Origin: Bdellovibrionales bacterium
GTDB taxonomy: Bacteria; Bdellovibrionota; Bdellovibrionia; Bdellovibrionales; JAUICD01
NCBI GenBank assembly: GCA_965203275.1
Contig: OZ241865.1
Coordinates: 1,728,001 to 1,792,000, forward strand
Reading direction: 5' to 3'
Length of the DNA stretch: 64,000 bases
The position numbers and the translations under genes were made by a program. Positions 12,838 to 58,948 of the stretch are shown here, one piece after another. Position 1 is the stretch's first letter, and every line of letters begins with the position of its first letter. The notes beneath the pieces were generated by a model that made no database searches, was not told where the DNA came from, and saw nothing but the letters and a program-made list of their open reading frames with translations.

Positions 12838-13600
12838 GGGATCCGGGATCTGGCAACCCGGCATCAGGCAAACGGGCAGGAGCGAAGCGAAAACCTTGTT
12901 TCCTTAACATTTCACTCAAAATGAGCCACACCGCTGGTGTGTTTTTTGGTGTTGCCTGCAAAGGCTTTCGCCTTTGACAAAATAGGCAACACCTAAAAAA
13001 TCCGCTCATTTTGAGTAGAGGAGGATCCTTTTATTCTTTTACACCATGTTAAGGAAATTTTTCTTTTATTGTCTTAAGAGCAAGCGGGTTACAATGAAGG
13101 AACTTTTTCCTTAACATGTAGTCAAAAAACGAAGAGATCCTCCCTTACTAAAAGTAAACGGACTTTTGAGGTAGCCAGCCTTTGATCGACGGCGGTAGCC
13201 GTCGGGCTGGCTACCCAAAAGTAGCCAGAGGCTAGTTTACTTTGAGTGAAACAACTCAGGCAATATTAGATTTGGAATTTGTTGGTTGTATGGAATTAGC
13301 AAAACAAGCTGATAAATTAGGTGCTTTTTTATACAAATTATGTAAAAATACTTAAAAGCAAATTTGAATTTATCCGGGATCTAAGATCCGGGATCCGGGA
13401 TCTGGCAACCCGGCAACAGAAGGATATTTTCCTTAACATGTAGTCAAAAAACGAAGAGATCCTCCTCTACTAAAAGTAAACGGACTTTTGAGGTAGCCAG
13501 CCTTTGATCGACGGCGGTAGCCGTCGGGCTGGCTACCCAAAAGTGACCAGAGGTCAGTTTACTTTTAGTGAACCAAACGGCTAGTTCAATTTTAGGGAAA
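12837..13600. repeat. Cluster 1 of covarying multi-stem element (copies 12899-13057 minus, 13106-13252 plus, 13428-13572 plus) with GGGATCY heptamers and linker
   Basis: TTTCCTTAACAT terminus and nested palindromes shared with other clusters. Confidence 0.92.
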
Positions 13601-13632
13601 TTAACAACAAAGTTAGACAGTAAAAGGTCCAA

Positions 13633-14544
13633 ATGCAGTATGCACTTGAAATAGACAATTTGAAAAAATCATACGGAGATGTACAAGCCATCAGAGGTGT
13701 ATCTTTTCACATAAAACCTGGTGAGATTTATGGCCTTTTAGGTCCGAATGGAGCAGGTAAAACCTCTTTAATCTCAATCATCACTTCTTTAGAAAAACCT
13801 CAATCAGGTACTGTACGTATCTTTGGTAGGGATATTAGTTCAGGAGACAGAATGACAAAAAGCCTTGTAGGGTGTGTTCCTCAAGAAGTGATCAGTCATG
13901 GATTTTTTACTGTTGAAGAAGTTTTGCATTTTGTTTCTGGTTATTATGGATTGCAAAATAACACCCAACGCATTCATGCTCTTTTAAAGCATTTACGGTT
14001 GTGGGAGCATAAAAATAAAAAAATCCCTCATCTCAGTGGCGGCCTCAAGCGTCGGTTTATGATTGCCAAAGCCTTAGTGCATGCTCCTAAGCTTTTATTA
14101 TTAGATGAACCTACAGCAGGTTTAGATATTGAATTGCGAGCTTCTCTTTTAGAGTTTGTCAAATCTCTTAATCAAACAGAAGGCTTAAGTTTGTTGTTGA
14201 CTACTCATTATTTAGAGGAAGCCCAACAGCTATGTGATACGATTGGCATTTTAGATCAGGGTTTATTGAAAAAATCAGGTCATAAAAAACAGCTCATTAA
14301 AGAACTCACATTAAGACATGTTGTTTTAAAATTAAGTCGAGAAATCAATAAGCCTCTACAATCCCCTTATTTAATTAAGCAGGGACCCCATCAAGTGACC
14401 CTTAAATTACCTTATGATTTAGGTGTAGGGGAAGTGATAGATCAAATGCAAATTGCAAAATATGTTTTTGATATAGAAGTTCATGAAGGCAACCTTGAAG
14501 ATGTTTTTATCAATGTTGTAGGTAAAAATGATGTTGTAACATAA
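13633..14544 (+). CDS. ABC-2 type transporter ATP-binding protein (YadG-like)
   Basis: GPNGAGKT, LSGG, LLLLDEPT and TTHY motifs. Confidence 0.93.
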   Translation: MQYALEIDNLKKSYGDVQAIRGVSFHIKPGEIYGLLGPNGAGKTSLISIITSLEKPQSGTVRIFGRDISSGDRMTKSLVGCVPQEVISHGFFTVEEVLHFVSGYYGLQNNTQRIHALLKHLRLWEHKNKKIPHLSGGLKRRFMIAKALVHAPKLLLLDEPTAGLDIELRASLLEFVKSLNQTEGLSLLLTTHYLEEAQQLCDTIGILDQGLLKKSGHKKQLIKELTLRHVVLKLSREINKPLQSPYLIKQGPHQVTLKLPYDLGVGEVIDQMQIAKYVFDIEVHEGNLEDVFINVVGKNDVVT

Positions 14545-14866
14545 ATCGTTCGTTTTAGCAAAGTTATAACACTTGAATCATCATAGACATTAGATATTAT
14601 TTCACTTTAAATATATGTTCAAGTCGGTACAGCAGACATATCAAAAAATTTATGTAACAGAAAAATTAGAAATTCCTATCAAGTTATTATTTGTAAAAAG
14701 TGTATTGTTCCTTGTAATTTTTACAAGGTGAGTTTTTATTCCTTTGCATATTGGATTTATTTATGATAAATATGTTCATTTGCAACATTTGCAACAAAAT
14801 TTATATATTACAAAGCACTTTTTAAAGAAATTATAATATAAATCAAACAAAAGGATATATCAAATT

Positions 14867-15922
14867 ATGAGGGAATTTATATTTATAGCTACTCTATTGA
14901 TAAATTCAACCAGTTATATGGTATTAGCTCAAAATACACAGATAGATGCTATTCCATTTTATGGCATTGGAGGTTTAGATCGTATTGAAAATTTTGAACA
15001 CTATCATCAAAACAGTTTTGAACATCATCATCAAAACAAAACAGATACTTATTTATTATTTGATTTTGAATGCTCTGAAGCTGATTGTAAAACAGTGATC
15101 TCTGATCCTGATGGACTGGCCTCTCTACTGGTAGCTCAATCTATGTTGCAAAGAGAGTACTTGTGTTCTTCTGATGCGATGTTCGATAGTCCTGTACCTC
15201 AATGGAAAGAAATCATAGCACCTTTTTATATACAAAAACTTCTTCGAATGAAACATCAATGCCAATACAACTTAGAAACTTTCTACGGGCCTAAAAAGCG
15301 ACCAACTCCAGCCCAAAATCGAACCTGCATCAAAGACGACAGGATTTTTATAGAACAAAATAGAAATAATCAAATAATATGTCGGGGAGGAGAACGCTTT
15401 GAAGATTTTTGCGAAAGATTAGATCAAGATGCCTCGAAGGTTTTAGAGCATATTTTTCAAGGAAAGCTACCAAATGATTTAGAGTCCATAGACCAAGGGG
15501 AAATAGCACCTTTGACTTATAGTGATCTTAATTTTATTTCTGATTTTCTTAAAAAATATGAAAAACAATATTTATATGTTCATGCCAGTCAAAATATGTA
15601 TCATGAAGAGCTGGGTATTTTCGGCACACCCAACACCAACGAAGGCAATTCCATATATGAGCAAATTCCACTATTGAGAGGAGATACACGTCTTAGTAAG
15701 TATTTGAGAATAGGCTATAATGAGAACAATCAAGATATTTTAAGGTTTTCTAACCATAAACCTCAACAGCCTCCTGCATTTTGTAGACGCATTAAACATC
15801 AATTAGTTGATATTATCCAAAATCAAATGACTATTCTTCTTTTTGATCCTAACAGGAATAATGCTCTTATCCCATCTATAAGGGTTCAATTAAATCAGAG
15901 TTTGTTAGCAATAGAAGGATGA
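14867..15922 (+). CDS. Secreted hypothetical protein
   Basis: 351-aa ORF with signal-like N-terminus. Confidence 0.7.
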   Translation: MREFIFIATLLINSTSYMVLAQNTQIDAIPFYGIGGLDRIENFEHYHQNSFEHHHQNKTDTYLLFDFECSEADCKTVISDPDGLASLLVAQSMLQREYLCSSDAMFDSPVPQWKEIIAPFYIQKLLRMKHQCQYNLETFYGPKKRPTPAQNRTCIKDDRIFIEQNRNNQIICRGGERFEDFCERLDQDASKVLEHIFQGKLPNDLESIDQGEIAPLTYSDLNFISDFLKKYEKQYLYVHASQNMYHEELGIFGTPNTNEGNSIYEQIPLLRGDTRLSKYLRIGYNENNQDILRFSNHKPQQPPAFCRRIKHQLVDIIQNQMTILLFDPNRNNALIPSIRVQLNQSLLAIEG

Positions 15923-15963
15923 TCCCTAACCCCACCCCCCACCCTTGATTCTGCTTTCCTATT

Positions 15964-16218
15964 TTGTTTTTATTTGAGGATAGGGTAAAAAACAGCAATT
16001 CAAAGATAGCTCCCGGAATCGATACAAAAGGTCCAGGTGGGCTAGGTGTTTTATATAAATGGCCTTTTATGATAAGTCACAATGATAAAGACGAGTTTTT
16101 AAGCTATTTGCGTGAGGGTGGTATTAACTCGGCCGGCCGGAGGGCTAATATGCAAATTAAAGCGGTTTTAAGGCTATTTTTAGCTTTCAAAACATCAATG
16201 ATCGTGGGATTTGGATAA
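15964..16218 (+). pseudogene. Fragment resembling the C-terminal part of a bifunctional primase-polymerase (Prim-Pol) domain
   Basis: APGIDTKGPGGLGV resembles the PGIDxRGxGGYVV motif; no good start codon. Confidence 0.4.
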
Positions 16219-16350
16219 AAAAGACCGACTTCTGGTAGTACATAAAGCCGGCCTTATGGATATTAGAAAGTGTTGTATATTTTATCGGCATCTATTGACT
16301 TTTCTTTACTTTTAATTTAAAAGGCTTATAATAAAATAAGGAAGGTCAAA

Positions 16351-16635
16351 ATGAAATTTAATAAAGATATGAAAGAAAATCTTATAGTTATAGCAACATT
16401 TATATTTGGCGTTGTCGGTGTTGTAGCAAGTATATTTTTTATAGATGATATGGTGCATCGATCTATGAAAATGCAAATAAGTGATATAAAGACTCAAAAT
16501 AAATTTATGGAAACACAAGTAACCGATATAAAGATACAAATGAAAGCTGTTGAAAATAAGATTGATAATATGGCTGAACAAAATAAAGAATTTCAAAGAG
16601 AAGTAAAGGCACTTATTAAAGCTTCAAATAATTAA
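16351..16635 (+). CDS. Small single-TM plus coiled-coil protein (paralog of 34287-34640)
   Basis: One TM segment, heptad-rich tail ending KIDNMAEQNK...ASNN. Confidence 0.75.
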   Translation: MKFNKDMKENLIVIATFIFGVVGVVASIFFIDDMVHRSMKMQISDIKTQNKFMETQVTDIKIQMKAVENKIDNMAEQNKEFQREVKALIKASNN

Positions 16636-16701
16636 CATTATCCAAAGAGGATGATATAAAATAATTTCTACTATTGTAGATAAAATTCATGATTCCATAT
16701 C

Positions 16702-16730
16702 AAAAGAGGCTTGATAGCCTCTTTTTTTTT
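16702..16730 (+). terminator. Rho-independent terminator
   Basis: AAAAGAGGC-TTGATA-GCCTCTTTTTTTTT. Confidence 0.8.
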
Positions 16731-16780
16731 GTATATATAAAGATTGATTATCGTAAGGCCCTCCGAGGGCGTATGATCGT

Positions 16781-17110
16781 ATGCCAAACCCACAAAAACT
16801 GATAAGGAAAGCTTATATGGATGCTATGAAAAGAATGAAAGAGAGAGAGGACATATACAAAGATATGTTTAAGATGTTTTGTTCTCAATTAATGAATGAC
16901 AATATAGGTATTCAGAGATTCATAAAAAACTATGTTGATAATATAACGTTTGATGGTGATCATTCCAAAGACCATCAACACTTACAATATGTTAAGGGAT
17001 TATCCGAGAAGAAGCTCAAACATTATACAAATCTTACCTTGCTAACAAGATTAATATCCTTAGATGATCTAAACCCACTTGAGATATACGACATTGTTTT
17101 GAAATCTTAA
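16781..17110 (+). CDS. Hypothetical protein (island)
   Basis: 109-aa ORF. Confidence 0.55.
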   Translation: MPNPQKLIRKAYMDAMKRMKEREDIYKDMFKMFCSQLMNDNIGIQRFIKNYVDNITFDGDHSKDHQHLQYVKGLSEKKLKHYTNLTLLTRLISLDDLNPLEIYDIVLKS

Positions 17111-17318
17111 CAAATTGAAATTCTATTTTTGAGTCCCTTCAAAATAAGCCTCGGGCGGGGCGAGGGGGTGGGGTTTGCTCTCTTGACAAAAATTTAAAAG
17201 AATCCTATAAAATTGCCTATTTGGTGTCATTTTGAGATCAAAAAAAGTCGATTTTGACCTTGTTTTCCGGAAAAGCAAATCGGCATGACAAAAAAAGACT
17301 ATAGAGTTAGCTTAAGGT

Positions 17319-17636
17319 ATGACTAAGAAATCTCAAAATTCAAATTCAGATAAAAAGAAGACATATTATCACCGGAAAGCATGGAAGGTTTTAAGATTAG
17401 AAATCTTAAGAGAGCATCCTTATTGTAGAATGTGCTTAAAGAAACGTATTTTTACCAAAGCTACTCATATTGATCATATTAACGGCTTTAATAATGAGGA
17501 TGAGTTCTTTGATAGAGATAACCTTCAGGCTTTATGTTTGCCTTGCCATTCCAGTAAAACCCATGCGGCCGGGGGCGACGACTGGCTTCGTCGACGAAAG
17601 GCCAAACTCGGAGTTATAGAATATTTTGATTATTAA
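17319..17636 (+). CDS. HNH endonuclease (phage packaging-associated type)
   Basis: W..LR...L..HPYCRMC, HIDH, NLQALCLPCHSSKT. Confidence 0.9.
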   Translation: MTKKSQNSNSDKKKTYYHRKAWKVLRLEILREHPYCRMCLKKRIFTKATHIDHINGFNNEDEFFDRDNLQALCLPCHSSKTHAAGGDDWLRRRKAKLGVIEYFDY

Positions 17637-17852
17637 ATGGTCGATTTTCAACTTCTAAGCTCAACTGCTTGTAAGCCAATAACCATCACAAAAAAACTTA
17701 TATTTTTTTTTGTTAAGACCTCGCAATCGTTAGAGGCTGAACCCCCACAAGGGACTCCATACCATGTTTTTTATCCTTAAGTAAGTCCAAAGACCGGCTT
17801 GAAAAGAGCATAAAGGCCGCTTGCTACGGCCCGTATATTCTTAATTAAATAG

Positions 17853-18512: not shown

Positions 18513-18802
18513 TTTCCTTAACATGGAGTTAAAAAACGAGAGGATTCTTCCTACTAAAAATAAACGGATTTTTGAGGCAATCAGCCTTTTATCGACGGCG
18601 ACAGCCGTCGGGCTAACTATTAGAAGGATGTTTTCCTTAACATGGTGTTAAGAAACGAAGAGATCCTCCCTACTCAAAGTGAACAGGCTTTTGAGACAAT
18701 GACCATTTTGTCAAAGGCGAAAGCCTTTGCGGTCATTGTCCAAAAGTGGCCAGAGGCCAGTTCACTTTGAGTGAAACAGAGGCTGGTTTATTTTTAGTGA
18801 AA
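18513..18802 (+). repeat. Cluster 2 of covarying multi-stem element (truncated copy, full copy 18632-18777, 3' stub)
   Basis: TTTCCTTAACATGG start, nested palindromes. Confidence 0.9.
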
Positions 18803-18813
18803 ATAAATACGGC

Positions 18814-19866: not shown

Positions 19867-20590
19867 TTGAATATCAAACAACATGTAGCTTATTATCGAG
19901 TATCAACGTCAAAGCAAACTATTGGCTTACAAACTCAAGAGACAATGGTCAAAGCCTATCTTAAAGATCAATGGCCTCCTATTAAATCATTCACAGAGAA
20001 GGAAAGTGGTAAGTGTGATAAGAATCGACCGCAATTGCAATTGGCTTTGGAGTATTGCCAACAGCACAAGGCAACTTTGGTCGTGGCTACATTGAGTCGT
20101 TTAAGTAGGGATTTGCATTTTATAACGTCCCTATCCAAATCTTAAGATAGATTTTGTATGTTGTGATATGCCTGATGCAACACCTCTGACAATAAACTTG
20201 ATGGGAGCGATTGCTCAATATGAAAGAGAGACTGTATCTAAAAGAACAAAAAGAGCTTTAGCAGAGTTAAAAAATCGTGGGGTGGAACTTGGAGCAAATA
20301 ATCCTAAGGTAAAGGCCGGTCTTGAGAAATATCGTGAAAGACAAAAAAAAGAACAAAATAACAAGTTAAAGCCTCAAAAAATTAAAGCATCATCTCAATT
20401 GAGTAACCCCTCAAAAGTAGAGCAAGCTGATCAAAGGCATATTCAAGCACTAAAGGTATTAAGAAATAACAAAAATTCATGGAAAGAGATTGCTTTTCAA
20501 TTTAACCTGCTCGGTTTTCCGACTCGTTTTAGAGGCAAGTGGCATCGAACGTCAATTAAGAGGCTTGCAGATCGTCTAAATATCCATTGA
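19867..20590 (+). pseudogene. Serine recombinase (resolvase family), frameshifted
   Basis: YYRVST and RLSR motifs; one extra T near 20143 breaks ...SKS|KIDFVCCDMPDA... Confidence 0.85.
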
Positions 20591-20615: not shown

Positions 20616-20786
20616 ATGGGTATGGTCACATTTTAGCTCATAGTCTTAACGAGCAATAAGGCTAAAAGAATATTTGAAATATTAAAAGCCGAATGCAAGG
20701 TTTACCAAATAACACAAAATGGTGGCTATCATTTCTTTGTTAGAGGGAATTTAAAAAACTGGGAGCCTTCCGAAGTCCTCAATTGA
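20616..20786 (+). pseudogene. Prim-Pol N-terminal fragment with internal stop
   Basis: Translates MGMVTF*LIVL...YQITQNGGYHFFV, resembling the TxSGGxHxYF motif. Confidence 0.45.
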
Positions 20787-20789
20787 GCT

Positions 20790-21442
20790 TGCTCTTAAGG
20801 AGCAACCGGGTTGCGATAAAGGAACTTTTTCCTTAACATCTCACTCAAAATGCATCATGCCGTCTTTTGCACTTGAAATGAACCACACCTCTGGTGTGTT
20901 TTTTGGTGTTGCCTGCAAAGGCTTTCGCCTTTGACAAAATAGGCAACACCTAAAAAATCCATTCATTTCAAGTAAGAAAGGATATCCTTGCCACTTGACA
21001 TCATGTTAAGGAAAATGTCCTTCTAATGGTAGTTAGCCCGACGGCTCACGCCGTCGTAAAAAGCTGGCTACCTCAAAAGCTTGTTCATTTTGAGTAGAGG
21101 AGGATCCTTTTATTCCTCTACACCATGTTAGGGAAACAAGATATGCTTCTAGAGTTTTTGGGGGAGCAAGCGGGTCTGCCTGCAATAAAGAAACTTTTTC
21201 CCTAACATGTAGTCAAAAAACGAAGATATCCTCCCCTACTCAAAATGAGCAGTTTTTTGCGGCATTGCTCTTTTAATATAATTTTAAAGGCATTTTGTTT
21301 CCTTAACATCATGTTAAGAGACAAGAGGATTCTTCTTACTAAAAGTGGTCAGGCTTTCTAGGTGATGACCATTTTATCGACGGCGAAAGCCGTCGTGGTC
21401 ATCGCCAGAAAGTGACCAGAGGTCAGACCACTTTTAGTGAAA
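20790..21442. repeat. Cluster 3 of covarying multi-stem element (about 5 full or partial copies in both orientations with linkers)
   Basis: Repeated TTTCC(T/C)TAACAT termini; full plus copy 21298-21442. Confidence 0.92.
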
Positions 21443-22803: not shown

Positions 22804-23052
22804 AAATCAAGAAGTTTTTATCAAATTGTAAAATTTATATATTGTCTATTTTTTATATATTTCTCGTCAGGTAATGTTTTGTTTTGAGACAAAAAGGCAA
22901 AAAGTCCACAACAGCAAAATCAATAAAAAGTGACAAGAAAGAACACCTGTTTGACAAAAAATGAACACTGTCTATTTTTTGATCATGTAGACTTTCTTGC
23001 GATGTTGTAAAAAAACCACTTTTACTCTAATAGGAGCTTATTTTGTGTAAAT
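22804..23052. repeat. Long non-coding direct repeat, copy 1 (copy 2 at 28394-28642)
   Basis: 249 bp, near-identical, offset 5590 bp. Confidence 0.95.
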
Positions 23053-23097: not shown

Positions 23098-23218
23098 GAT
23101 GCCGGGTTGCCAGATCCCGGATCCCGGATAAACACAATGTTAAGGAAACAAAATGCCTTTAAAATTATATTAAAAGAGCAATGCCTCAAAAGTCCGTTCA
23201 CTTTTAGTAAGGGAGGGA
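23098..23218 (-). repeat. Cluster 4: heptamer tract plus partial multi-stem element
   Basis: Reverse complement of the module at about 21230-21310 plus GATCCCG heptamers. Confidence 0.8.
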
Positions 23219-23459
23219 GTTCATCCCATTGATTTAATAATCATTTAACCAATTGAAAAATAATTTGACATTGGTCTTATATTATGCTATTGTATGTAGA
23301 TAGTAGGTCAGCAAATTATTCAGAACTGGAGTGGACCCTCAACTAGTAGGTAGGGTAGCCATAACTAAAAGATCTTCATCAATATAAATAAGCTGACAGA
23401 TACTCAATTTTTATAGATATGTAAAAAAGAGAAAGTCTAAAAACTTCGATAAGTGAATT

Positions 23460-25667
23460 ATGATTACAAAAATCACAATGGATAATATTGCAAGCTATAA
23501 AAAACCTACATTTTTTGAAACTGATAAGAAGATCAATCTGATCTATGGACTCAATGGGACAGGTAAAAGCATTTTTTCAGAATATCTATATAATCAATCA
23601 AATTCAAATGATCAACTAAATTCAGAATATTCAGATTGCTCTATTGAAGGACTCAATGACAAAGACATTCTTGTTTACAATCAAAAATTTATTCAAGATC
23701 ATTTTTATCAAAAAGAGAGCTTAAAAGGTATCTTCACTATATCAAAAGACAATAAAGAAGCCTTAGAAAAAATTAATAAAGCAGAACAAGAGAAAAGTAA
23801 GCTTGAAAAAGAAAAAGAAGATAAAAATAAGGAAAAAGATCGTTTTAATGAAGATTTAAAAGAGAAAAAAGAAGATGCGGAAAACAAAGTATGGGAAATT
23901 AAAAAAAAATATACTGGTGGTGATCGTGTGTTAGAATATTGTTTTGATAGTCTAAAAGGTAAAAAAGATAGATTATTTGATCATTTATCCCAGATAGAAA
24001 AACCTGCACAAAAACCAAAGAAAGAAACCAATCAACTCAAGAGCGAAGTTTCAGCTATAAAAGGGGATAAAGCACAAAAGTATAATCCATTGCCTTCTAT
24101 TAACTCCGAATTTTTTCAAGAAGTAGAATTAGATCCCATTTTTAAAAAAGTCATTATAGGGAATGAAAATAGCACAGTCTCAGATTTGATTAAAAGCCTC
24201 AATAATTCTGATTGGGTCCAAAAAGGATTGGTTTATTTACCAGAAAAAATAAATGCACAAGAGCCTTGCCCTTTTTGTCAGCAACCAACTATTACAAATG
24301 AGTTAAAACAGTCCATTCAAGATTACTTTGATAAAAGTTATAGTGATAAACTTGATAAAGTTAAAAAACTACTTTCAAAATATGAAGATAGTGTTAATAA
24401 ACATATTCCTAAAAAAAATATTTTTCAAAATTATCCATTTATTGAAAATAAAAAACATGAATTTGAAAATTTATACAATACCTTATCAGCAGTATTAAAC
24501 AATAATAAAGAAAAAATAAAAAACAAAATACAAACACCAAGTCAACAATCTCTTATGAAAAACTCAAAAAAAGCTATCGATGATTTTAATAACTTTATTC
24601 AAACTATCAATGAAAAAATCACAGCTCATAACCACAAGATGGACAATAAAGAGAAAACTCTTGGAGAAATCAAAAATCAGTTTTGGGATATTATGCGTTG
24701 GGATTATGATCAAACTTTGTCTTTTTATGAAAGTGAGAAGCATAAAATTGGAGAAAAAATAAACGACATTCAAGAAAAAATAAAAAATATTCAAAATAAA
24801 ATATCTATTCAAGAAAAAACTATAAAAGAGCATCAAGGTCAAACTAGCAATATTCAAGAAGCTATTGATCATATTAATCATCAGCTTAAAGATCTAGGTA
24901 TAAGTAATTTTGAGATAAAAAAACACGATAAAAATTTTTATAAAATCATCAGAGAAGGACAATCTAGTGATACATTTCAAACTCTTAGTGAGGGTGAGAA
25001 AATGATAATAAGTTTTCTTTATTTCTGTGAGCTTTGTAAAGGGAAAAAGACAGCATCAAGTCCTTTAAAGAAAAAAATTATAGTCATTGATGATCCTATT
25101 TCCAGCCTATCTCATATTTATATTTTTAATGTAGGTATGCTTATTAAGGAAACCTTTTTAGAATCTAATAATTATGAGCAGATCATTCTCTTAACACATA
25201 GTCTTTATTTTTTCCATGAATTATCTAAGTTATCTAAGAGGTTATCTAAAAAACAAAACAATCCAAAACTTTTTAGAATGATCAAGAATTCTGAAGGTAG
25301 TCAAATTTTAAAGATGGAAGATAAAGAAATCCAAAATGATTATCAATCTTACTGGAGTATTGTAAAAGACCGTCAGCAACCACCAGCCTTAATGGCAAAT
25401 TGCATGCGTCAAATTCTTGAATATTTTTTTGGTTTTATTGAAAAAGAATCCTTAAATGAGGTTTTTAAAAAAGACATATTTAAAGAACTAAAATACCAAG
25501 CGTTTCATCGCTACATGAATCGAGAGTCTCATTTTGACAGTCAAAATATATCTGATACAAAAGAGCTTGATTATGAAAATTTCCGAGAAGCATTTCAGTT
25601 AGTTTTTAAAGAGAGTGGATATAAAAAGCACTATGATCGCATAATGAAACCTGAGTTTGACAGTTGA
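23460..25667 (+). CDS. AAA_13 Rad50-like ATPase with C-terminal HEPN-like motif (RloC-like defence protein)
   Basis: GLNGTGKS, coiled coils, CPFC zinc hook, LSEGE, VIDDP, LTH, NCMRQILE...RYMNRESH. Confidence 0.8.
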   Translation: MITKITMDNIASYKKPTFFETDKKINLIYGLNGTGKSIFSEYLYNQSNSNDQLNSEYSDCSIEGLNDKDILVYNQKFIQDHFYQKESLKGIFTISKDNKEALEKINKAEQEKSKLEKEKEDKNKEKDRFNEDLKEKKEDAENKVWEIKKKYTGGDRVLEYCFDSLKGKKDRLFDHLSQIEKPAQKPKKETNQLKSEVSAIKGDKAQKYNPLPSINSEFFQEVELDPIFKKVIIGNENSTVSDLIKSLNNSDWVQKGLVYLPEKINAQEPCPFCQQPTITNELKQSIQDYFDKSYSDKLDKVKKLLSKYEDSVNKHIPKKNIFQNYPFIENKKHEFENLYNTLSAVLNNNKEKIKNKIQTPSQQSLMKNSKKAIDDFNNFIQTINEKITAHNHKMDNKEKTLGEIKNQFWDIMRWDYDQTLSFYESEKHKIGEKINDIQEKIKNIQNKISIQEKTIKEHQGQTSNIQEAIDHINHQLKDLGISNFEIKKHDKNFYKIIREGQSSDTFQTLSEGEKMIISFLYFCELCKGKKTASSPLKKKIIVIDDPISSLSHIYIFNVGMLIKETFLESNNYEQIILLTHSLYFFHELSKLSKRLSKKQNNPKLFRMIKNSEGSQILKMEDKEIQNDYQSYWSIVKDRQQPPALMANCMRQILEYFFGFIEKESLNEVFKKDIFKELKYQAFHRYMNRESHFDSQNISDTKELDYENFREAFQLVFKESGYKKHYDRIMKPEFDS

Positions 25668-26022
25668 TTTGCGAATGTGGATATCTTTTTTTGAGAATGT
25701 TTTATTTATAGGTGTTAGAGAGATTTGTAAGTTTTAATTTTTAAATTTTGGTAGAATTCCTAGTGAAACATTTTTTTTTAATTTTATCAATAAAGTCTTG
25801 ATATAGAAAGCTATACATTATTGAGTAAAAATGATAATGAAAATATGAAAATCCTAAAAATAAGGGGGAAAGATGAAGTTTCAGATAAATAAATTAATGA
25901 TTTCCCCTAAATTAAAAAGCTTACAGTAAAAAAAAGCTCACATCCTAGTGGCATAAAACCTTGTTACGCTTATAACCTATTGAAATCACACAATTTTATT
26001 TTTGCAGGCTGTCAAACTCAAG
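25650..26022 (+). mobile_element. MITE, 373 bp, 14-bp imperfect TIRs
   Basis: CCTGAGTTTGACAG...CTGTCAAACTCAAG; full-length homologue at 61983-62356. Confidence 0.88.
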
Positions 26023-26944
26023 TTTTACTTTTTAGCTTTAAAATATGATCTTGAGATAAACCTGTCACCTGAGAGATTAAAGCAATATTCATATTCTCTT
26101 TTAACATATTGTGTGCAACTAATTCCATACCCTTTTCCATACCTTCTTGTCGACCCTCAGCGATACCTTCTTGTCGACCCTCGGCGATACCTTCTTGCCG
26201 ACCTTTAGCTAAACCTTCTAATAAGCCTCTTTTAACCATTGGTATATATGCACCCATCTTACCTCCTTCTACTTTGACTAATTTACTATCCTTATCTGAA
26301 GCTAATTTCAAACATCTATTGAAAAAATCCAAATCTATTTTTGGATTTCTACGATATAAATGATATTGAACTGCTGATAATATTATATCTTGATTATTCA
26401 CTCCATGCAACCCTTTAAACAAATGAACCAACTCACTTTCAAGAACACGCTCATCCGAAGAAGTTAGCAACTTTTTATCCTTAAACAAATATAATGCTAT
26501 GCGAGAATGTAAACAACCCCACTGACTCTGCAAATGAGGGTCATGTACATCATAAATCCGCAATCTATAATTTAACATATCTTGAGATAAACTGCTCAAA
26601 GGACCTTGTATTCCCTGTTTTTGTTCCTGTAACTGCAATTCTAACCACTCTTTAGGAAGCAAATCTTGTAAAGATAATGGACCCTTAACTTGACGATGAC
26701 CATGAGAAAATAAAATAGCCAGCAACGGAGGGAATACCACTTGACCTTTCACATTGTAACGCTTGATCACCTCACACATATAACCTAATACTTGAATTAA
26801 TACTTGGGGCTTATAACTTGACTTATGCTCAAATAAAATTAACAGAGGAATACGTACATGAGGATAGGCCTTAAAAGGGATGCTATAAAGCAAATCTGCC
26901 GTTAAGCCCTTTGTAAAACTATCTTTGACTAAATTTTGTTTCAC
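26018..26944 (-). CDS. Rpn family (RpnC/YadD, PD-(D/E)XK) protein, N-terminally truncated
   Basis: ADLLYS...ILFEHKS, C-terminal (I)AEGRQEG repeats and IALISQVTGLS tail; the GTG start lies within a repeat element. Confidence 0.85.
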   Translation of the reverse strand: MKQNLVKDSFTKGLTADLLYSIPFKAYPHVRIPLLILFEHKSSYKPQVLIQVLGYMCEVIKRYNVKGQVVFPPLLAILFSHGHRQVKGPLSLQDLLPKEWLELQLQEQKQGIQGPLSSLSQDMLNYRLRIYDVHDPHLQSQWGCLHSRIALYLFKDKKLLTSSDERVLESELVHLFKGLHGVNNQDIILSAVQYHLYRRNPKIDLDFFNRCLKLASDKDSKLVKVEGGKMGAYIPMVKRGLLEGLAKGRQEGIAEGRQEGIAEGRQEGMEKGMELVAHNMLKENMNIALISQVTGLSQDHILKLKSKT

Positions 26945-27198
26945 TAAAAGTGGTCTAGCCTCTGGCTACTTTTGGGCAATGACCGCAAAGGCTTTCGCCT
27001 TTGACAGAATGGTCATTGCCTCAAAAGCCTGACCACTTTTAGTAGGAAGGATCCCTTCGTCCCTTAACTCCATGTTAAGGAAAAAGCTCTTTCTTACACC
27101 TTTTGGCTCACGCCGTCGATCAAAGGCTGGCTACCTCAAAAGTCCGTTTACTTTTAGTAAGGAGGATCCCTTCTTTTTTTAATACCATGTTAGGGAAA
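26939..27198 (-). repeat. Cluster 5 of covarying multi-stem element (full 26939-27083, partial 27106-27198)
   Basis: Nested palindromes ending CATGTTAAGGAAA / CATGTTAGGGAAA. Confidence 0.9.
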
Positions 27199-52869: not shown

Positions 52870-52976
52870 GATCCGGGATCCCGGGAGCTGGGATCTGGGA
52901 TCCGGGAGCTGGGATCCGGGATCTGGGATCCGGGATCCGGGATCTGGGATCCGGGATCCGGGATCTGGGAGCTGGC
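52870..52976. repeat. Heptamer tandem repeat (GGGATCC/GGGATCT/GGGAGCT) x ~15
   Basis: Direct reading; shorter tracts at 12837, 13373, 23100 and 58353. Confidence 0.95.
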
Positions 52977-53008
52977 AATGCAGAATTTTTTCCTTTATGA
53001 AGTGGGTT

Positions 53009-53284
53009 TTATTTTTCTTGTTGGTTTTTAGCTAACATCTCAAATAATCGATCAAGCCTTTGATTGGTTTGATCAATCTTTTGTCCAAGTCTTTGATTGG
53101 TTTGATCAATCTTTTCTTCAAGTCTTCTTATTTGAGTAGGAATATGGTTATTTACTTGATTTTCAATATGGTTTAGCCGGTTATGGATAGGGCTAACTAA
53201 AAATTGAAGTATAACGATCAAGCTAGCAAGACCACATAAAACACCTATTATTAAACCTGCATTCTTTTGAAAAAAGTCTTTCAT
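53009..53284 (-). CDS. Single-TM plus coiled-coil protein with 11-aa repeats, copy 1
   Basis: GAGG RBS; KIDQTNQRL x2. Confidence 0.85.
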   Translation of the reverse strand: MKDFFQKNAGLIIGVLCGLASLIVILQFLVSPIHNRLNHIENQVNNHIPTQIRRLEEKIDQTNQRLGQKIDQTNQRLDRLFEMLAKNQQEK

Positions 53285-53318
53285 AATTTACCTCTTTTCT
53301 TTTACTATACCATTAAAA

Positions 53319-53397
53319 CCTGAGTTTGACAGCCTGCAAAAACAAAGCTTAGTAAATTCAGCAGGTTATAAGCGTAATAAGATTTTGTATATGCCAC
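53319..53397 (-). mobile_element. MITE right-end remnant between duplicated genes
   Basis: CCTGAGTTTGACAGCCTGCAAAAA...TGCCAC is the reverse complement of the 3' end of the MITEs at 25650 and 61983. Confidence 0.85.
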
Positions 53398-53410
53398 TAT
53401 GAAGTGGGTT

Positions 53411-53719
53411 TTATTTTTCTTGTTGGTTTTTAGCTAACATCTCAAATAATCGATCAAGTCTTTGATTGGTCTGATCAATCTTTTGTTCAAGTCTCTGGTT
53501 GGTCTGATCAATCTTTTCTCCAAGTCTTTGATTGGTCTGATCAATCTTTTGTCCAAGTTCTCTTATTTGAGTAGGGATATGGTTATTTACTTGATTTTCA
53601 ATATGGTTTAGCCGGTTATAGATAGGGCTAACTAAAAATTGAAGTATAACGATCAAGCTAGCAAGACCACCTAAAACACCTATTATTAAACCTATATTCT
53701 TTTGAAAAAAATCTTTCAT
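53411..53719 (-). CDS. Single-TM plus coiled-coil protein with 11-aa repeats, copy 2
   Basis: Near-identical to copy 1 with one extra 33-bp unit (KIDQTNQRL x3). Confidence 0.85.
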   Translation of the reverse strand: MKDFFQKNIGLIIGVLGGLASLIVILQFLVSPIYNRLNHIENQVNNHIPTQIRELGQKIDQTNQRLGEKIDQTNQRLEQKIDQTNQRLDRLFEMLAKNQQEK

Positions 53720-54015
53720 AATTTACCTCTTTTCTTTTACTATACCATTAAAAGACAAGAAATAAAACAAAAATCCTTTTGATGCACAGTATTATATTAT
53801 TGTTTTGAAACACTTAGAAATAGCAAATTATTCTATATTTTGATTAAATTTGAAACAATTAATATTTTGAAATTCTAAATAATTTCAATAATTTAGAAGA
53901 TTTGATGTTGACTATTCTAAAGATATATAAGTAATAAGCATATATAAAATCTACTATAGCTTTAGGGAGTATTTCTGGCATATATTTTTGACTTCCTTTT
54001 CTGCTACTCACCTTT

Positions 54016-56232
54016 TTATTTTTTCTTCAAAAGCTTAAGAAACTCTTCCATTTGCAAATTCTTTTTGTGAGGAAAATCAAGAATCATAAACTCATTAATC
54101 ATTTGTGGGCTTGAAGGTTTTATGTATGTTCCTAAGCTAATTAATAAGCTCTTTTTTGATTCATATTTTTTAATAAGTCCGTAGGATAGCATTTGTTTCT
54201 CAAGACCTTCTTGTTGATATTGAGAGTGAAATGTTAAACAAAAAGGTTCTGCACCTAAACACAAGCTATGAGGTCTTTTGTTTTTTTCTGTGTCTTTTAT
54301 ATAGCCCTCTATTAAATCAAATATTTTTTTAAAAGTCACAAAATCAAAATACAATAACCAATAGATCGCATCAGAATGACCTGAAGAATATTTTAATAGC
54401 TTCTTAAATTGATCTATTGTTAAACCTTGTGTTTGTGTTATTTTTTTTAAATCATTCAAATGAATAGAAGAAATAGCATTTTGAGTATAGAGGTTATCCC
54501 ACTCTTTAATAAACCTTCTTAATCGAGGGTCTAAATTTAACTTTGGCTTTTTTTGAGGGTCAGGATTATGACTACAGTAATAATCATCAAAAGGAGCAAT
54601 CCATTCTGAAGGAATAAATACAAGCTGATCATTGCCTTTAAAATTAAATCCACCACAGGGACTATTTGTAAGATACAGTCCAAAATAACTCAGCTCATCT
54701 AATGCACAAATAGTTTGTTCATCCTGTACCTGTACCTCTAATCGAGACTTGATATAATGTATAAATAAGGAGGGATATTCTATATGGTTTAAAATAATTT
54801 CTAATTCTAAAAGATTAACAGCCCAAGGATATTGATTTTCTTTAAATAAATTTTGTAGTTTGGTTGTTTTTAAATTTTGTGTGATCATCATTAAATTTTC
54901 TAAACCAATACAAATAGAAAAAACCTCTAAGTGACTTGATTTTTCTATATGTATAGGCTTGCTACCTTGATAAAAAATAGGTTTATCTTCACTTAAAATA
55001 TAATCAGAAGTTCTTTGAGTTTGCTCATAAGCCTTTCCAATAATTTCTTTTAAGCCATATTCAAGCTGTTGTTTATAACCACCAGCTTTGGCTTTATATC
55101 TTAGAGAGCCAGATTTGACTTCAGCTATAATGATCTTGTTGTCATACTCTATTAAAATATCAACTTCATAGTCTTTACCTTTATATTGATACTTTAAATT
55201 TTTATAGACTCGATCCTTAAAAACTTTTTGAAAGCTTGTATAAGCTAATTCTTCTGCATATTTACTTTTTGCATTGTTGTATTGTTTCCACAGAGTTTTA
55301 TGGCTCTCTTTTTTATCTTTGATCAAGCATTCTAGTTGATGAATGATACCGTATTGGATTTGCTCAATATTTATTCCTAAATAGCCATTTTGCGTTTTTA
55401 TAATAGGCTTTTTCCAAGATATATCTTCATCTAATAATGAGTTATAATTAGGATTTCCTTCCCCTATTTGAATAGAGCAGTTTTCAAGATAAGTGCAAAT
55501 TTCTTCTCTAAATGCATCCCTTTCATTTTTTGGAAGTTTCTCTTTCAGCAAAGTTTCTATATCATCTTCTATATCATCTTCAGTAAATAAAAAATTTGTG
55601 TCGTGATTTTTGAATTTTTTGTCATAAATATTTGCTACTGCTCTTGAAAATGCACGGGCAATTAAAGGCTTAAATCCAAACTCTTTAAAAAAAGAGTAAC
55701 TTAAAGGCTTAAGTCCAAATTTTTCTAAAAAATTATGACTTAGAGAACTCATTTTTTTTCTTTTAATTAAGTCTTCTATATGATCAGAGTTTATCTCACC
55801 AAATAGACTACAAAACTTTTTTTCTAATTGGTTAGGGTATATTTCAGGATTGATTAGGCTTAAAAGGTATTGACTTTGAGAAAGGTATAAAAAATCATGC
55901 CAAGAGTTATTGTTGTTTTCCTTATGCCTAATTGGCCAATGAAAAGCACGGCAGTAGTTGATTAGAGTTTCTTTTAATCGATGAATATCTTTTTGGGATG
56001 GTTTTTTTGTTGAGATTTTTTTTTGTTTTAAGTACATGTTGAATAAAAAATTAACTATGGGTTGTTGTATTTTTTCTTCAACAGATAATGATTGCGACAT
56101 GTAATAATATTTAGAAATATAAAAAAGTGTTTCAATAGGATCATATTTGGAAATAAAATCATCTATTTCTTTTTTAGATTGCTTTATTTCTCTTTCATTT
56201 CTTTGTTGGATAATTTCTAAATAATCTTTCAT
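54016..56232 (-). CDS. NERD-like PD-(D/E)XK nuclease domain protein
   Basis: YAEE...EVDILIEY...IIAEVKSG motif; start overlaps fic stop. Confidence 0.65.
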   Translation of the reverse strand: MKDYLEIIQQRNEREIKQSKKEIDDFISKYDPIETLFYISKYYYMSQSLSVEEKIQQPIVNFLFNMYLKQKKISTKKPSQKDIHRLKETLINYCRAFHWPIRHKENNNNSWHDFLYLSQSQYLLSLINPEIYPNQLEKKFCSLFGEINSDHIEDLIKRKKMSSLSHNFLEKFGLKPLSYSFFKEFGFKPLIARAFSRAVANIYDKKFKNHDTNFLFTEDDIEDDIETLLKEKLPKNERDAFREEICTYLENCSIQIGEGNPNYNSLLDEDISWKKPIIKTQNGYLGINIEQIQYGIIHQLECLIKDKKESHKTLWKQYNNAKSKYAEELAYTSFQKVFKDRVYKNLKYQYKGKDYEVDILIEYDNKIIIAEVKSGSLRYKAKAGGYKQQLEYGLKEIIGKAYEQTQRTSDYILSEDKPIFYQGSKPIHIEKSSHLEVFSICIGLENLMMITQNLKTTKLQNLFKENQYPWAVNLLELEIILNHIEYPSLFIHYIKSRLEVQVQDEQTICALDELSYFGLYLTNSPCGGFNFKGNDQLVFIPSEWIAPFDDYYCSHNPDPQKKPKLNLDPRLRRFIKEWDNLYTQNAISSIHLNDLKKITQTQGLTIDQFKKLLKYSSGHSDAIYWLLYFDFVTFKKIFDLIEGYIKDTEKNKRPHSLCLGAEPFCLTFHSQYQQEGLEKQMLSYGLIKKYESKKSLLISLGTYIKPSSPQMINEFMILDFPHKKNLQMEEFLKLLKKK

Positions 56233-57650
56233 AAGATTCTATTTTTCCTAAGTTTTTGAGCTTTTTGCCAATTTTCAAACTGCTGTTTATTAACCTTATA
56301 GCGTGCAAAATTTCCTTCATGTAAAGAGATAAGTTCCGACTCAATCACTTCAATAAACTGTGATTGTTCTCTTATAGGAAATTTTTTAGATTCTTGCTTT
56401 ATTCTCTTTAAAGTATTTTTCACTGGTAATGGTTTACTGATCAGTGAATGGATCAATAAGCTGATTTCTTTATGATATTTTAAACGGAAAAGATCTGGTT
56501 TTGCATGTTCTATATGACTTAAAACATTATATTGTTTAGCAGAGCGTTCATAAGCCCATAAGAAGACATCTCTCAATAAAAAAATACTTCTTTTTTCATA
56601 CACTCCTAACACACCTTGTGTATAAATATCTTTAGGTACATCAAGAAAAGATAAAGGTGAAAGTTGATTCTTAATCAAAGGAATGTTAGTAGCTAAGCGA
56701 GAAACACGTTTATTAACATCTGTAAATGGTTGCAAATAGGGAAGATGAACCATGATAAAAAAAGCCTGCTCATATGGATTTTGAATTTGCCGTGCTTTTT
56801 TCAGAATAAGATCAAATAATTCCTCTATCATTTGTGGAATATCTAATGGCTCATAAGTAGAACCTTTAATTCCTACAATTTTTTGACGCAAAGAGCCTGA
56901 ATATTGCGGTTCTAAGAGGTTGTGGGATAGCAATGCATGTAGATTAAGGATTGTTGGTTTGTTAAATCCGATATCATTACCATGCTTTTTTGATTCGACC
57001 AGAAATCTAATAGCTTCTTTATGGTTTAAAATCATTTGAGCTTCAGTAGCTTTTTTGTCATCTGCTAGCTCACTAAACTCAAGTAGCCTTTGTGTTTCTA
57101 ATAAAGAATAAGTATTTCCTTCAAGACGGCTAGAATTCCATGAGAGATCAATTAATAAACGATTTAAGATGTCTTTAGAATAAGTTTCAACAGGTTGAAT
57201 AAGGTTTTTTATACTGCCTATTTGAGTCAATTTTTTAATTTGAGCAGGTGTCAAATAGCTATTTTTACTATTGGGTTGATAGGATTCTAAGAAATCACGA
57301 GAATAACTTACAGGTTCTCTCTTTTGCTTGGGGAGCTTCACAAAAGTTAAAATATGTTGACCAGCTTTTGAAAGTGGGATAACAGAATGATTTAAGTGGT
57401 TTTCTTGTTGAGATGTGTCCTTTAAAGAAGTCAAATAATACCTTGTTGCACGAGATTGACCTGTCACGTAGATTTTTTTCTGCTCTGCCAGTAAGGAAAG
57501 CTTTCTCTGTAAGGTTCTTCGAGTCCACTTTAAGCCTAATTGGATGACTTCACTTTCTATTTCTTCTATAGAAGCTCCGTTTGGAAAGCCCTTTAAAATA
57601 TCTCTAACATTGTCTAATTCTTGCTTCTGAGTTATTTTTTTTGTAGGCAT
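56229..57650 (-). CDS. Fic family protein with N-terminal HTH
   Basis: SWNSSRLEGN and LQPFTDVNKRVSR (Fic motif variant); RRTLQRKL HTH-like segment. Confidence 0.9.
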   Translation of the reverse strand: MPTKKITQKQELDNVRDILKGFPNGASIEEIESEVIQLGLKWTRRTLQRKLSLLAEQKKIYVTGQSRATRYYLTSLKDTSQQENHLNHSVIPLSKAGQHILTFVKLPKQKREPVSYSRDFLESYQPNSKNSYLTPAQIKKLTQIGSIKNLIQPVETYSKDILNRLLIDLSWNSSRLEGNTYSLLETQRLLEFSELADDKKATEAQMILNHKEAIRFLVESKKHGNDIGFNKPTILNLHALLSHNLLEPQYSGSLRQKIVGIKGSTYEPLDIPQMIEELFDLILKKARQIQNPYEQAFFIMVHLPYLQPFTDVNKRVSRLATNIPLIKNQLSPLSFLDVPKDIYTQGVLGVYEKRSIFLLRDVFLWAYERSAKQYNVLSHIEHAKPDLFRLKYHKEISLLIHSLISKPLPVKNTLKRIKQESKKFPIREQSQFIEVIESELISLHEGNFARYKVNKQQFENWQKAQKLRKNRIL

Positions 57651-57712
57651 GTAGAGAATCCTTTTATTGGTTTTTAAATTTCTGTGAATTGATCTTTAAA
57701 CATTATATCACA

Positions 57713-57763
57713 GAATTTGTCGCACAAATAGTTTGCACGACAAATTCGTGATTTGCACGACAA
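57713..57763. promoter_or_regulatory. Putative operator upstream of fic
   Basis: GAATTTGTCG-N15-CGACAAATTC inverted repeat plus TTTGCACGACAA direct repeat. Confidence 0.6.
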
Positions 57764-57887
57764 TTTTATTATTTTGAAACGTTTTGTATGAATATCTAAG
57801 ATTATTTTATGAAAAACGAAAACTAGAAACTTGCTTAAGAAAATAATGTATAATAAAACACATAGAAAAATACAGAGAAATGAACGT

Positions 57888-58948
57888 CTTGTTTCCTTAA
57901 CATTTCACTCAAAATGCATCATGCCGTCTTTTGCACTTGAAATGAACCACACCTCTGTTTCCCTAAAATTGAACTAGCCTCTGGCTACTTTTGGGCAGTT
58001 AGCCCGACGACTGTCGTCGTCGATCAAAGGCTAACTCCCTCAAAAGCTTGTTCAATTTTAGGAAGAAGGATGTCCTCATTTTTTTACTTCATATTAAGGA
58101 AAAAGATTTCCTTCTGATGTTTGCTCTGACAGCTATCGCTGTCCAAAAAGAGCAATGTCGTTGGTTCACTAAAAGTAAACTAGCCTTTGTTTCACTCAAA
58201 GTGAACTGGCCTCTGGCCACTTTTGGACAATGACCGCAAAGGCTTTCGCCTTTGACAAAATGGTCATTGCCTCAAAAGCCTGTTCACTTTGAGTAAGAAG
58301 GATCTCATCGTCTCTTAACTACATGTTAAGGAAACAAGATTTCCTTCGTTCTTGCCGGGTTGCCGGATCCTGGATCCCGGATCCCAGAAAAATACGATGT
58401 TAAGGAAACAAGATGTTTATTTCACGTCGATAAATGGTCATTGCCTCAAAAGCCTGACCACTTTTAGTTGGGAGGATCCTCTCGTCTCTTTACACGATGT
58501 TAAGGGAAAAGTTCCTTCTTACATCTTTTGCCTGCAAAGGCTTTCGCCTTTGACAAAATAGGCAACACCTAAAAAATCCGTTCATTTCAAGTAAGAAAGG
58601 ATATCCTTGCCTCTTGACATCATGTTAAGGAAAATGTCCTTCTAATGGCAGTTAGCCCGACGGCTTACGCTGTTGACAAAATGGTCATTGTCTCAAAAAT
58701 CTATGCATTTTGAGTAGAGAAGGATCCTTTTATTCCTTTACACCATGTTAAGGAAAAATTCTTTTATTTTCTTAGGAGCAAGCGACTTACGATAAAGGAA
58801 CTTTTTCCTTAACATGTAGTTATGAGACGAGGATATCCTCCCCTACTAAAAGTAAACGGACTTTTGAGATAGCCAGCCTTTGATCGACGGCGACAGCCGT
58901 CGGGCTGGCTATCCAAAAGCAACCAGAGGTTGGTTTACTTTTAGTGAA
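57888..58948. repeat. Cluster 6 of covarying multi-stem element (about 8 full or partial copies, heptamers, linker)
   Basis: Full copies at about 57957-58102 (minus), 58190-58335 (minus) and 58804-58948 (plus). Confidence 0.93.

What the first reader, a model, noticed from the sequence alone, without database searches (positions are those of the whole stretch)
12899..58948. Dispersed multi-stem element whose helices covary between copies
About 20 full or partial copies of a ~145-160 bp non-coding element lie in six clusters (12.9-13.6, 18.5-18.8, 20.8-21.4, 23.1-23.2, 26.9-27.2 and 57.9-58.9 kb). The architecture is fixed: TTTCCTTAACAT, ~30-nt leader, P1, P2, bulged A, P3, T-rich bulge, P4 with a GNNA loop, P3', P2', side hairpin P5 with an AGA loop, P1', GAA(A). 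Helix sequences change while staying paired. P1 variants: ACTAAAAGTAAAC, ACTCAAAGTGAAC, ACTCAAAATGAGC, ACTAAAAGTGGTC, CCTAAAATTGAAC. P2: CTTTTG, CTTTCT, TTTTTT. P3: GGTAGCCAGCC, GATAGCCAGCC, GACAATGACC, GGTGTTGCCT, GGTGATGACC. P4: CGACGGC or CAAAGGC, with loops GAAA, GACA, GGTA, GTGA. P5: TAGCC, TGACC, TGGCC, CAACC, CACACC. Helix variants are mixed between copies. This much compensatory change inside one genome implies selection on a fold (RNA or ssDNA), or a mechanism that re-pairs the arms. I do not recognise the family; it may be an undescribed structured mobile element or ncRNA (inference).
Basis: partly seen in the sequence, partly recalled or inferred. Interest (0 to 1): 0.88.

Follow-up and report, generated by a model that had tools for sequence, protein, structure and literature searches.

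The report
Polar, fold-conserving selfish DNA repeat
A 145-base non-coding DNA unit that keeps one branched hairpin shape while its sequence varies has spread to about a thousand places in this small bacterial genome; it behaves like a selfish repeat that moves as single-stranded DNA, but no enzyme known to move such repeats was found.

Summary
Confirmed and genome-wide. The left-end word occurs 1128 times (3.5 expected); 610 copies are full length; the family fills 6.5% of a 2.57-Mb Bdellovibrionales-like genome. Helix arms covary (96% Watson-Crick versus 73% with shuffled halves), nested helices are mixed, and bulges stay fixed. There is no Rfam hit. It was found in one genus only: the hits in a third genome lie on mis-binned contigs, which removes the apparent link to a four-helix-bundle gene. 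Insertions show no target duplication, carry about 10-25 nt left and 0-8 nt right donor flank, usually replace target bases, and nest in the same orientation (304:10 at left ends). Almost pure Watson-Crick pairs and GNNA rather than GNRA loops favour a DNA fold. Best reading (0.55): a non-autonomous REP/BIME-like element cut and joined as folded single-stranded DNA by an unidentified enzyme, reshuffled by recombination. It is not a member of the REP/REPIN, classical MITE, attC or retron families. No RAYT, IS91, IS110 or reverse transcriptase was found in this genome. The scan has reported this same family before in other windows of this genome.

The parts
12899..12909 (+). Left-end word fused to the right end of the opposite-strand copy (double-headed class)
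   Evidence: 102 of 1016 right ends genome-wide are joined this way
12910..13057 (-). Full copy, P1 ACTCAAAATGAGC, P5 loop AGC
13106..13251 (+). Full copy, P1 ACTAAAAGTAAAC; right end abuts a four-helix-bundle gene remnant
13254..13355 (+). 3' remnant (33 codons) of a four-helix-bundle (PF05635) gene truncated at the element's right end
   Evidence: intact paralogues
13388..13417 (+). GGGATCC-type heptamer repeats (separate family, a frequent target; also 12836-12865 + and 23098-23127 -)
13428..13573 (+). Full copy
18513..18631 (+). 5' part of a host copy interrupted in P3' plus the purine-rich carried flank
18632..18776 (+). Full copy nested in the host, same orientation
18777..18802 (+). Stacked right-end remnant (P5 loop to GAAA)
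20828..20866 (+). Left-end word fused to reverse right-end remnants
20867..21014 (-). Full copy, P1 ACTTGAAATGAAT
21016..21136 (-). Interrupted host copy (5' part)
21197..21281 (+). Interrupted host copy (5' part)
21298..21442 (+). Full copy, P1 ACTAAAAGTGGTC
23137..23215 (-). Left-end word followed by heptamer repeats, preceded by a truncated P1-P3 piece
26939..27083 (-). Full copy; its right end abuts a 5'-truncated rpn (Transposase_31) gene at 26018-26944
27088..27198 (-). Interrupted host copy (5' part)
57892..57957 (+). Left-end word fused to stacked reverse right ends
57958..58102 (-). Full copy, P1 CCTAAAATTGAAC
58190..58334 (-). Full copy, with a stacked right-end remnant at 58164-58189
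58440..58756 (-). Three partial, same-orientation copies (58440-58508, 58511-58633, 58635-58756)
58804..58949 (+). Full copy, P5 CAACC

Best explanation
A non-autonomous selfish DNA element that works like REP/BIME/REPIN repeats. Shown: a 145-146-bp unit (TTTCC to AGT-GAAA) with a sequence-conserved left word, a purine-variable leader and a three-way junction whose helices are free in sequence but paired. It inserts at new sites without target duplication, brings short donor flanks, and lands mostly in the same orientation inside older copies and other repeats. Inferred: the top strand folds when single-stranded; a trans-acting nick-and-join enzyme (HUH-like chemistry, not identified) recognises the left word, the invariant helix positions and the bulges, cuts at loosely defined sites a few to about 25 nt outside the unit, and joins the piece into a target strand, preferably one that already carries a bound copy in the same polarity. 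Also inferred: homologous recombination and gene conversion among about 1000 copies swap leaders, inner helices and flanks, and copies that still fold are the ones that spread.
For: Covariation with fixed bulges. Paired arms are more tightly linked than neighbouring helices: normalised MI P1-P1' 0.75, P3-P3' 0.83, P4-P4' 0.93, versus P1-P3 0.51 and leader-body 0.08 or less. Filled versus empty paralogues; identical units between different flanks; no excess of direct repeats (45 of 548 with 4 nt or more versus about 36 shuffled). Carried flanks: one clean site (G000:1827550) has no loss, 13 nt left and 2 nt right that match flanks seen at copies in an unrelated repeat family. Polarity: 304 same versus 10 opposite at left junctions, 388 versus 3 at right junctions, 85 of 86 two-sided nests, 57 versus 5 adjacent left words in G001 loci. 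DNA-like fold: G-T in 1.4% of cells, G-T 188 versus A-C 103, GNYA or five-base loops in 150 of 352. Precedent: TnpA-REP needs a tag plus a stem mismatch on ssDNA, cuts at variable distance on either side and joins strands (PMC3333891, passages); REPINs show compensatory changes (PMC3116915, passages).
Against: No candidate enzyme in G000: Y1_Tnp none at E 0.1 or below, Y2_Tnp only E = 0.11, Rep_trans none, Rep_1 none but its control rang nowhere. No conserved cleavage dinucleotide emerged at 267 right junctions beyond an A/C-rich tail. Targets usually lose bases (median 16 in 22 sites), which a single nick-and-join would not do. 102 of 1016 right ends are joined in the opposite orientation into a left word, and head-to-head pairs are common in G000. 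Junctions are not independent events, and left and right flanks may come from different events. No clean empty-site joint appeared among the rows shown from four runs.
Confidence: 0.55

Rival explanations
1. No dedicated enzyme. Hairpins stall or break replication forks; host repair copies a sister element into the break by microhomology and gene conversion, and template switching re-pairs the arms.
For: No transposase of the tested families in G000. Imprecise joints with target loss, and weak similarity of the carried flank to the replaced bases (31% versus 26.5% permuted). Same-orientation nesting is also what unequal recombination gives. Almost pure Watson-Crick pairing. Template-switch homogenisation of quasipalindromes is documented in E. 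coli (PMC7202029, start of abstract in search listing).
Against: Template switching should erase bulges, yet 593 of 610 full copies keep the 95-105-nt asymmetric span and the same bulges exist in G001. An invariant unpaired left word and a sharp right end point to protein recognition. Insertions into unrelated genes and a CRISPR repeat need little homology.
Confidence: 0.2
2. The unit is a structured RNA copied back into DNA (SINE-like, target-primed), using a reverse transcriptase in trans.
For: A sharper A-rich 3' end and a variable 5' extension resemble target-primed insertion. G001 has a group II intron RT and another RT. Folding energy slightly favours the top strand.
Against: No RT in G000, where the family is most abundant. 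G-U pairs are rare and many loops break GNRA. Left ends are intact rather than truncated.
Confidence: 0.1
3. A domesticated regulatory RNA or DNA element (terminator, UTR or nucleoid site) kept by selection on the host.
For: 6 of 1128 left words lie inside long ORFs. 50 right ends versus 1 left end lie within 80 nt of a start codon, and convergent intergenic regions are enriched (53 of 135 versus 94 of 434 tandem). The P5 hairpin plus T-run scores as terminator-like.
Against: No orientation bias in tandem gene pairs (76:76). Copies interrupt four-helix-bundle and rpn genes and one another. Found in one genus only.
Confidence: 0.08
4. A folded-ssDNA substrate for a host tyrosine recombinase, like integron attC or CTX-phage attP (both recalled, not from a call).
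For: The left end reads YYYTAAC-N5-GTYAAG with a variable 5-nt spacer, recalling attC R''-L''. About 5 foreign bases often follow the right end. Both G000 and G001 hold two tyrosine recombinases.
Against: No complementary R'/L' at the far end. The left word is carried intact, so no exchange happens inside it. Recombinases of similar size occur in the element-free G002 and G005. The left flank is 10-25 nt, not a 5-7-nt overlap.
Confidence: 0.07

Closest known systems
REP / BIME / REPIN elements with RAYT (TnpA-REP) Y1 transposases (PMC3116915 and PMC3333891, passages; PMC3733652, abstract and outline; PMC5581495, search listing only)
   Same: Hundreds of extragenic copies, conserved hairpin with compensatory changes and an essential asymmetry, a short sequence tag at one end, mosaic clusters, variable junctions.
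   Different: 145-bp three-way junction instead of a 20-40-bp palindrome or symmetric doublet; no GTAG or CGTC tag; no RAYT in the genome; helices vary at 25 of 39 columns within one genome; strong self-nesting. CGTC REPs also lack a dedicated transposase (PMC3733652 abstract).
Neisserial NIME arrays (dRS3 plus RS elements; PMC1797815, passages)
   Same: A short inverted repeat with a variable centre heads several cargo types (808 leader+P1, 116 heptamer, 97 reverse end, 107 other); arrays are dynamic.
   Different: One dominant folded body; same-orientation nesting; no IS110/Piv-type recombinase found.
Classical bacterial MITEs mobilised by DDE transposases (general knowledge)
   Same: Short, non-coding, high copy, with imperfect terminal inverted repeats (10 of 12).
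   Different: No target duplication, carried flanks, polar insertion; the ends of resident IS256 and IS1634 are unrelated.
Integron attC and CTX-phage attP folded-ssDNA sites (recalled)
   Same: Structure conserved over sequence, with fixed extrahelical bases on one strand.
   Different: Dispersed and cassette-free; no R'/L' partner; no integron integrase identified.

Membership tests
REP/REPIN-RAYT | GTAG or CGTC tag next to a 20-40-bp palindrome | tested here: not met
   Consensus of alignment A1; definition from the PMC3733652 abstract
REP/REPIN-RAYT | RAYT gene in the genome, flanked by the repeats | tested here: not met
   No Y1_Tnp in G000; the single G001 hit is IS200-type with no left word in its 3.4-kb locus
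REP/REPIN-RAYT | Extragenic, hairpin conserved through compensatory changes | tested here: met
REP/REPIN-RAYT | ssDNA cleavage and strand transfer dependent on tag and bulge | not testable with these tools
   needs biochemistry
DDE-type MITE | Terminal inverted repeats | tested here: inconclusive
   Imperfect 10 of 12 match between the ends; the right arm is paired in P1 in the fold
DDE-type MITE | Target-site duplication | tested here: not met
   no excess over shuffled pairs except 3 of 548 with 11-12 nt
DDE-type MITE | Cognate transposase with the same ends | tested here: not met
   IS256 and IS1634 ends differ; other IS families were not all screened
Integron attC | R''/L'' boxes paired with L'/R' at the far end, flanking gene cassettes | tested here: not met
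   The left word has no partner in the fold; copies nest instead of flanking ORFs; the attC definition is recalled
IS91/ISCR rolling-circle | Y2 transposase and a fixed target tetranucleotide | tested here: not met
   Y2_Tnp best E = 0.11; right-end targets vary, CAA/CAG in 30 of 57 short junctions
NIME/dRS3 (IS110-Piv) | IS110-family recombinase | tested here: not met
   PF02371 none in G000; PF01548 not searched
Retron / retro-element | Reverse transcriptase in the genome | tested here: not met
Described ncRNA (Rfam 15) | Hit at the gathering threshold | tested here: not met
   0 hits in the window; 7 weak hits far below gathering in 57800-59000
Structured ncRNA (undescribed) | Discrete transcript | not testable with these tools
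   No RNA holder listed

The most novel reading that the evidence does not exclude
A new class of bacterial mobile DNA: a structure-defined, strand-polar element whose branched ssDNA fold is read by an enzyme outside the known transposase families (or by a co-opted housekeeping nuclease), which cuts outside the element, carries flanks along and needs a resident copy on the target strand. The roughly 350 natural fold variants in one genome would then map that enzyme's recognition rules.
Probability: 0.3. Interest if true: 0.85.

Novelty: new variant of a known kind. Interest (0 to 1): 0.62.

Why it matters
A reduced 2.6-Mb genome gives 6.5% of its DNA to one repeat with no recognisable mobiliser. 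If an enzyme is responsible, it is a structure-guided DNA insertion activity not matching RAYT, IS91, IS110, RT or resident DDE transposases, and it bears on the open question of how transposase-less palindromic repeats spread. The family is also a natural mutational scan of a ssDNA fold, and it coincides with gene-order breaks between the two genomes (23 of 24 element-bearing gaps broken versus 21 of 29 others, p = 0.03; weak, because gene order is scrambled overall).

Tried and rejected
Four-helix-bundle (PF05635) gene as partner: it seemed to co-occur in G000, G001 and G004. But all 12 G004 element hits are on small contigs C1, C4 and C11, G004 has two RecG genes and the C1 copy is 94% identical to G001's, and 18 of 19 G004 PF05635 hits are on C12-C15, where 4 of 4 loci viewed lack the element. 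G021 (18 copies) and G025 (11) have no element. Rejected as a specific link; the genes are targets. Rpn (PF04754): 16 copies in element-free G003. PDDEXK_2: 14 in element-free G022. GIY-YIG: only UvrC-sized ORFs in G000 and G001. Cas1: in ordinary CRISPR-Cas loci; none of 48 spacers carries the element words searched. Serine resolvase copies: ends unrelated. An HUH motif scan of 1945 ORFs gave 11 hits, none convincing. A dif-like reading gave nothing convincing. Expression: no RNA holder listed. Reads: no clean empty-site joint among the rows shown (contigs only, tables cut). My leader helix was off by one base and is not counted. An alternative P1:P2 pairing suggested by four covarying sites in G000 is not kept in G001 rows. 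Literature searches with no relevant hit; they cover an open-access library only.
Full report
Observation. The six clusters exist as described. A covariance model built from 52 copies (9 from this window, the rest from G000, G001 and G004 loci) finds 10 full and 7 partial copies in the window. The window lies in G000, one 2.57-Mb contig of 35% GC; its same-genus relative G001 is titled a Bdellovibrionales MAG. The word TTCCYTAACAT occurs 1128 times (3.5 expected) in 415 clusters, and 6 of 1128 fall inside ORFs of 150 aa or more although such interiors cover 65% of the genome. 873 left words (one mismatch allowed) are followed by P1 and 610 reach a paired P1'. The family masks 167,798 bp, 6.5%. 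Contigs of four public runs from three studies also pile up over the clusters, so it is not an assembly artefact.

Structure. 573 copies could be parsed into helices, giving 352 distinct bodies. Pairing is 96.3% Watson-Crick versus 72.7% when 3' halves are shuffled; 25 of 39 columns have at least two Watson-Crick types seen five times or more; G-T cells number 188 and A-C cells 103 of 13,728. On the cross-genome alignment, RNAalifold recovers the same fold, and 33 of 42 body pairs change on both sides, beyond all 500 shuffles and all slid registers. These controls do not correct for relatedness. Paired arms are more tightly associated than neighbouring helices, and inner and outer helices are mixed: 35 perfect P1/P3 combinations from 11 P1 and 16 P3 variants. 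About 9% of copies carry mismatched P1 arms, one such chimera in 16 copies, so single crossovers happen and small defects are tolerated. The leader's A/G sites are close to linkage equilibrium with each other and with the body. Invariant or nearly invariant are the left word, CT..AA.T in P1, TTT/AAA in P2, the CC-AGA-GG tip of P5 and the G...A loop closure. Loops are GNRA in 202, GNYA in 118 and five bases in 32 of 352 bodies. That GNNA loops are very stable in DNA hairpins, and that RNA helices usually fix some G-U pairs, is my own knowledge; on it I read the fold as DNA, top strand.

Mobility. Paralogous repeats and genes show filled and empty versions (62 islands; 22 non-self sites). Identical leader-plus-body units sit between different flanks, which puts the ends at TTTCC and AGT-GAAA. 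Direct repeats at the flanks are no commoner than in shuffled pairs. Left junctions carry a purine-rich segment not found in the empty host, most often 11-24 nt; right junctions carry 0 to about 8 nt, usually CAA, CAAC or CAAAC. Targets lose a median of 16 bp in the 22 non-self sites and mostly 10-20 bp in 86 two-sided nests, but flanks may have been exchanged between events by recombination. One site, G000:1827550, is clean: no loss, no duplication, and 13 nt left and 2 nt right that match flanks of copies lying in a different repeat family. The same flank families recur at many host positions. I infer that donor flanks travel with the unit.

Polarity. Where a left junction lies in an older copy, the orientation is the same in 304 and opposite in 10 of 874 distinct junctions (555 have no element host within 50 nt, 5 are ambiguous); at right junctions 388 versus 3 of 906. 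That test misses one antisense class: 102 of 1016 right ends are fused into an opposite-strand left word, as at window 12899. Adjacent left words share a strand in 502 of 713 pairs in G000 and in 57 of 62 in the G001 loci held. Orientation is unrelated to transcription in tandem gene pairs (76:76) and strand-balanced along the chromosome, but right ends face start codons 50 times against once for left ends, which may reflect a preference for purine-rich top strands. TnpA-REP binds only a correctly oriented REP on ssDNA, needs the stem mismatch, and cuts 5' or 3' of it over more than 400 nt (PMC3333891, passages); an enzyme of that behaviour would give polar nesting and variable flanks. Unequal recombination also gives same-orientation arrays, so polarity alone does not decide.

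Distribution. The pattern is found in G000 (817), G001 (193) and G004 (6), and in none of 38 other genomes. The model hits the same 3 of 151 genomes of the order (only 21 candidates were scored per genome). G004's hits are all on small contigs whose proteins are as close to G000 as G001's are, and G004 has a second RecG: the one beside the element is 94% identical to G001's, the one on a large contig 55%. These contigs are mis-binned, so the family is known from one genus.

Enzyme search. Not found in G000: Y1_Tnp, RVT_1, Transposase_20 and Rep_trans, and Y2_Tnp only at E = 0.11. Present but not specific or not matching: two tyrosine recombinases, with similar-sized ones in element-free relatives, IS256 and IS1634 with unrelated ends, a serine resolvase family, rpn genes, Cas1 in four CRISPR-Cas loci. 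The genome is 90% complete by markers, and most of its 1945 ORFs were not scanned against Pfam; only 48 window proteins were.

Comparison. It works like REP/BIME/REPIN but fails their tag, size and RAYT criteria; it fails the duplication test for MITEs, the partner-box test for attC, and the RT test for retro-elements. There is no Rfam family. Papers seen: passages of PMC3116915, PMC3333891 and PMC1797815; abstract and outline of PMC3733652; search listings of PMC7202029 and PMC5581495. The first two ids and PMC3733652 came from earlier scan notes. No supplements were read. Searches that found no description of this family. attC, CTX attP, IS91, Tn916 coupling sequences and RpnS are recalled, not from calls.

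Verdict. A real, strongly fold-conserved, genus-restricted selfish repeat: a new and elaborate variant of the palindromic non-autonomous elements, most likely moved as folded single-stranded DNA by an unidentified enzyme (0.55), with a 0.3 chance that it defines a new class. The scan's earlier notes describe the same family in at least five other windows of this genome. New here are the mis-binning correction, the polarity counts and the carried-flank signature.

Noticed in passing
G004 contigs C1, C4, C11: Apparently mis-binned from a G001-like organism: duplicate RecG at 94% to G001, higher protein identity to G000 than the large contigs have.
   Followed up: yes
window 23169-25448 (AAA_13 gene, 735 aa): Contig depth is about a quarter to a third of the neighbouring unique DNA in two runs, and one 6.8-kb contig leaves the reference at 23052: possibly a variably present island.
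   Followed up: no
G000, 14 PF05635 loci, e.g. L073, L076, L079; remnant at window 13254-13355: Near-identical 101-aa four-helix-bundle genes flanked by heptamer repeats and a 5' hairpin over the ribosome-binding site; multi-copy also in G001, G004, G021 and G025. They look mobile with no known mover.
   Followed up: partly
G000:893178, 908252, 2025616: rpn (PDDEXK_2) genes split by the element just before an internal GGAGG-ATG, separating the C-terminal piece; an internal antitoxin start in Rpn genes is recalled, not tested.
   Followed up: no
G000, around 243800, 371200, 1994000, 2270400: Four CRISPR-Cas loci of different types with arrays of 6, 13, 9 and 24 repeat-word matches; an element's right end abuts a repeat at 2266376.
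   Followed up: partly
window about 20760-20820 and 21145-21195; genome-wide: At least two further repeat families (one with a GCTTGCTC...GAGCAAGC hairpin, one with ACGTATCTCTGAAAG) serve as targets; head-to-head element pairs sit in the first.
   Followed up: partly
G000:212909-212940, 320594, 888677, 1287812: Stacked left ends with a 31-32-nt period: insertions into the leader of older copies with only 3-11 nt of carried flank.
   Followed up: no
window 52873-52979: Heptamer-repeat array next to two small membrane/coiled-coil genes at 53009-53719, with no element left word.
   Followed up: no
window 19867-20590: Frameshifted member of a six-copy serine resolvase family also present in G001.
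   Followed up: partly
G001 loci, e.g. L016, L019, L022, L023: P5 often carries one or two extra GCTCGCCTCGAGAG sub-hairpins, and the P1-P2 linker can hold an extra hairpin: the junction tolerates added arms.
   Followed up: no
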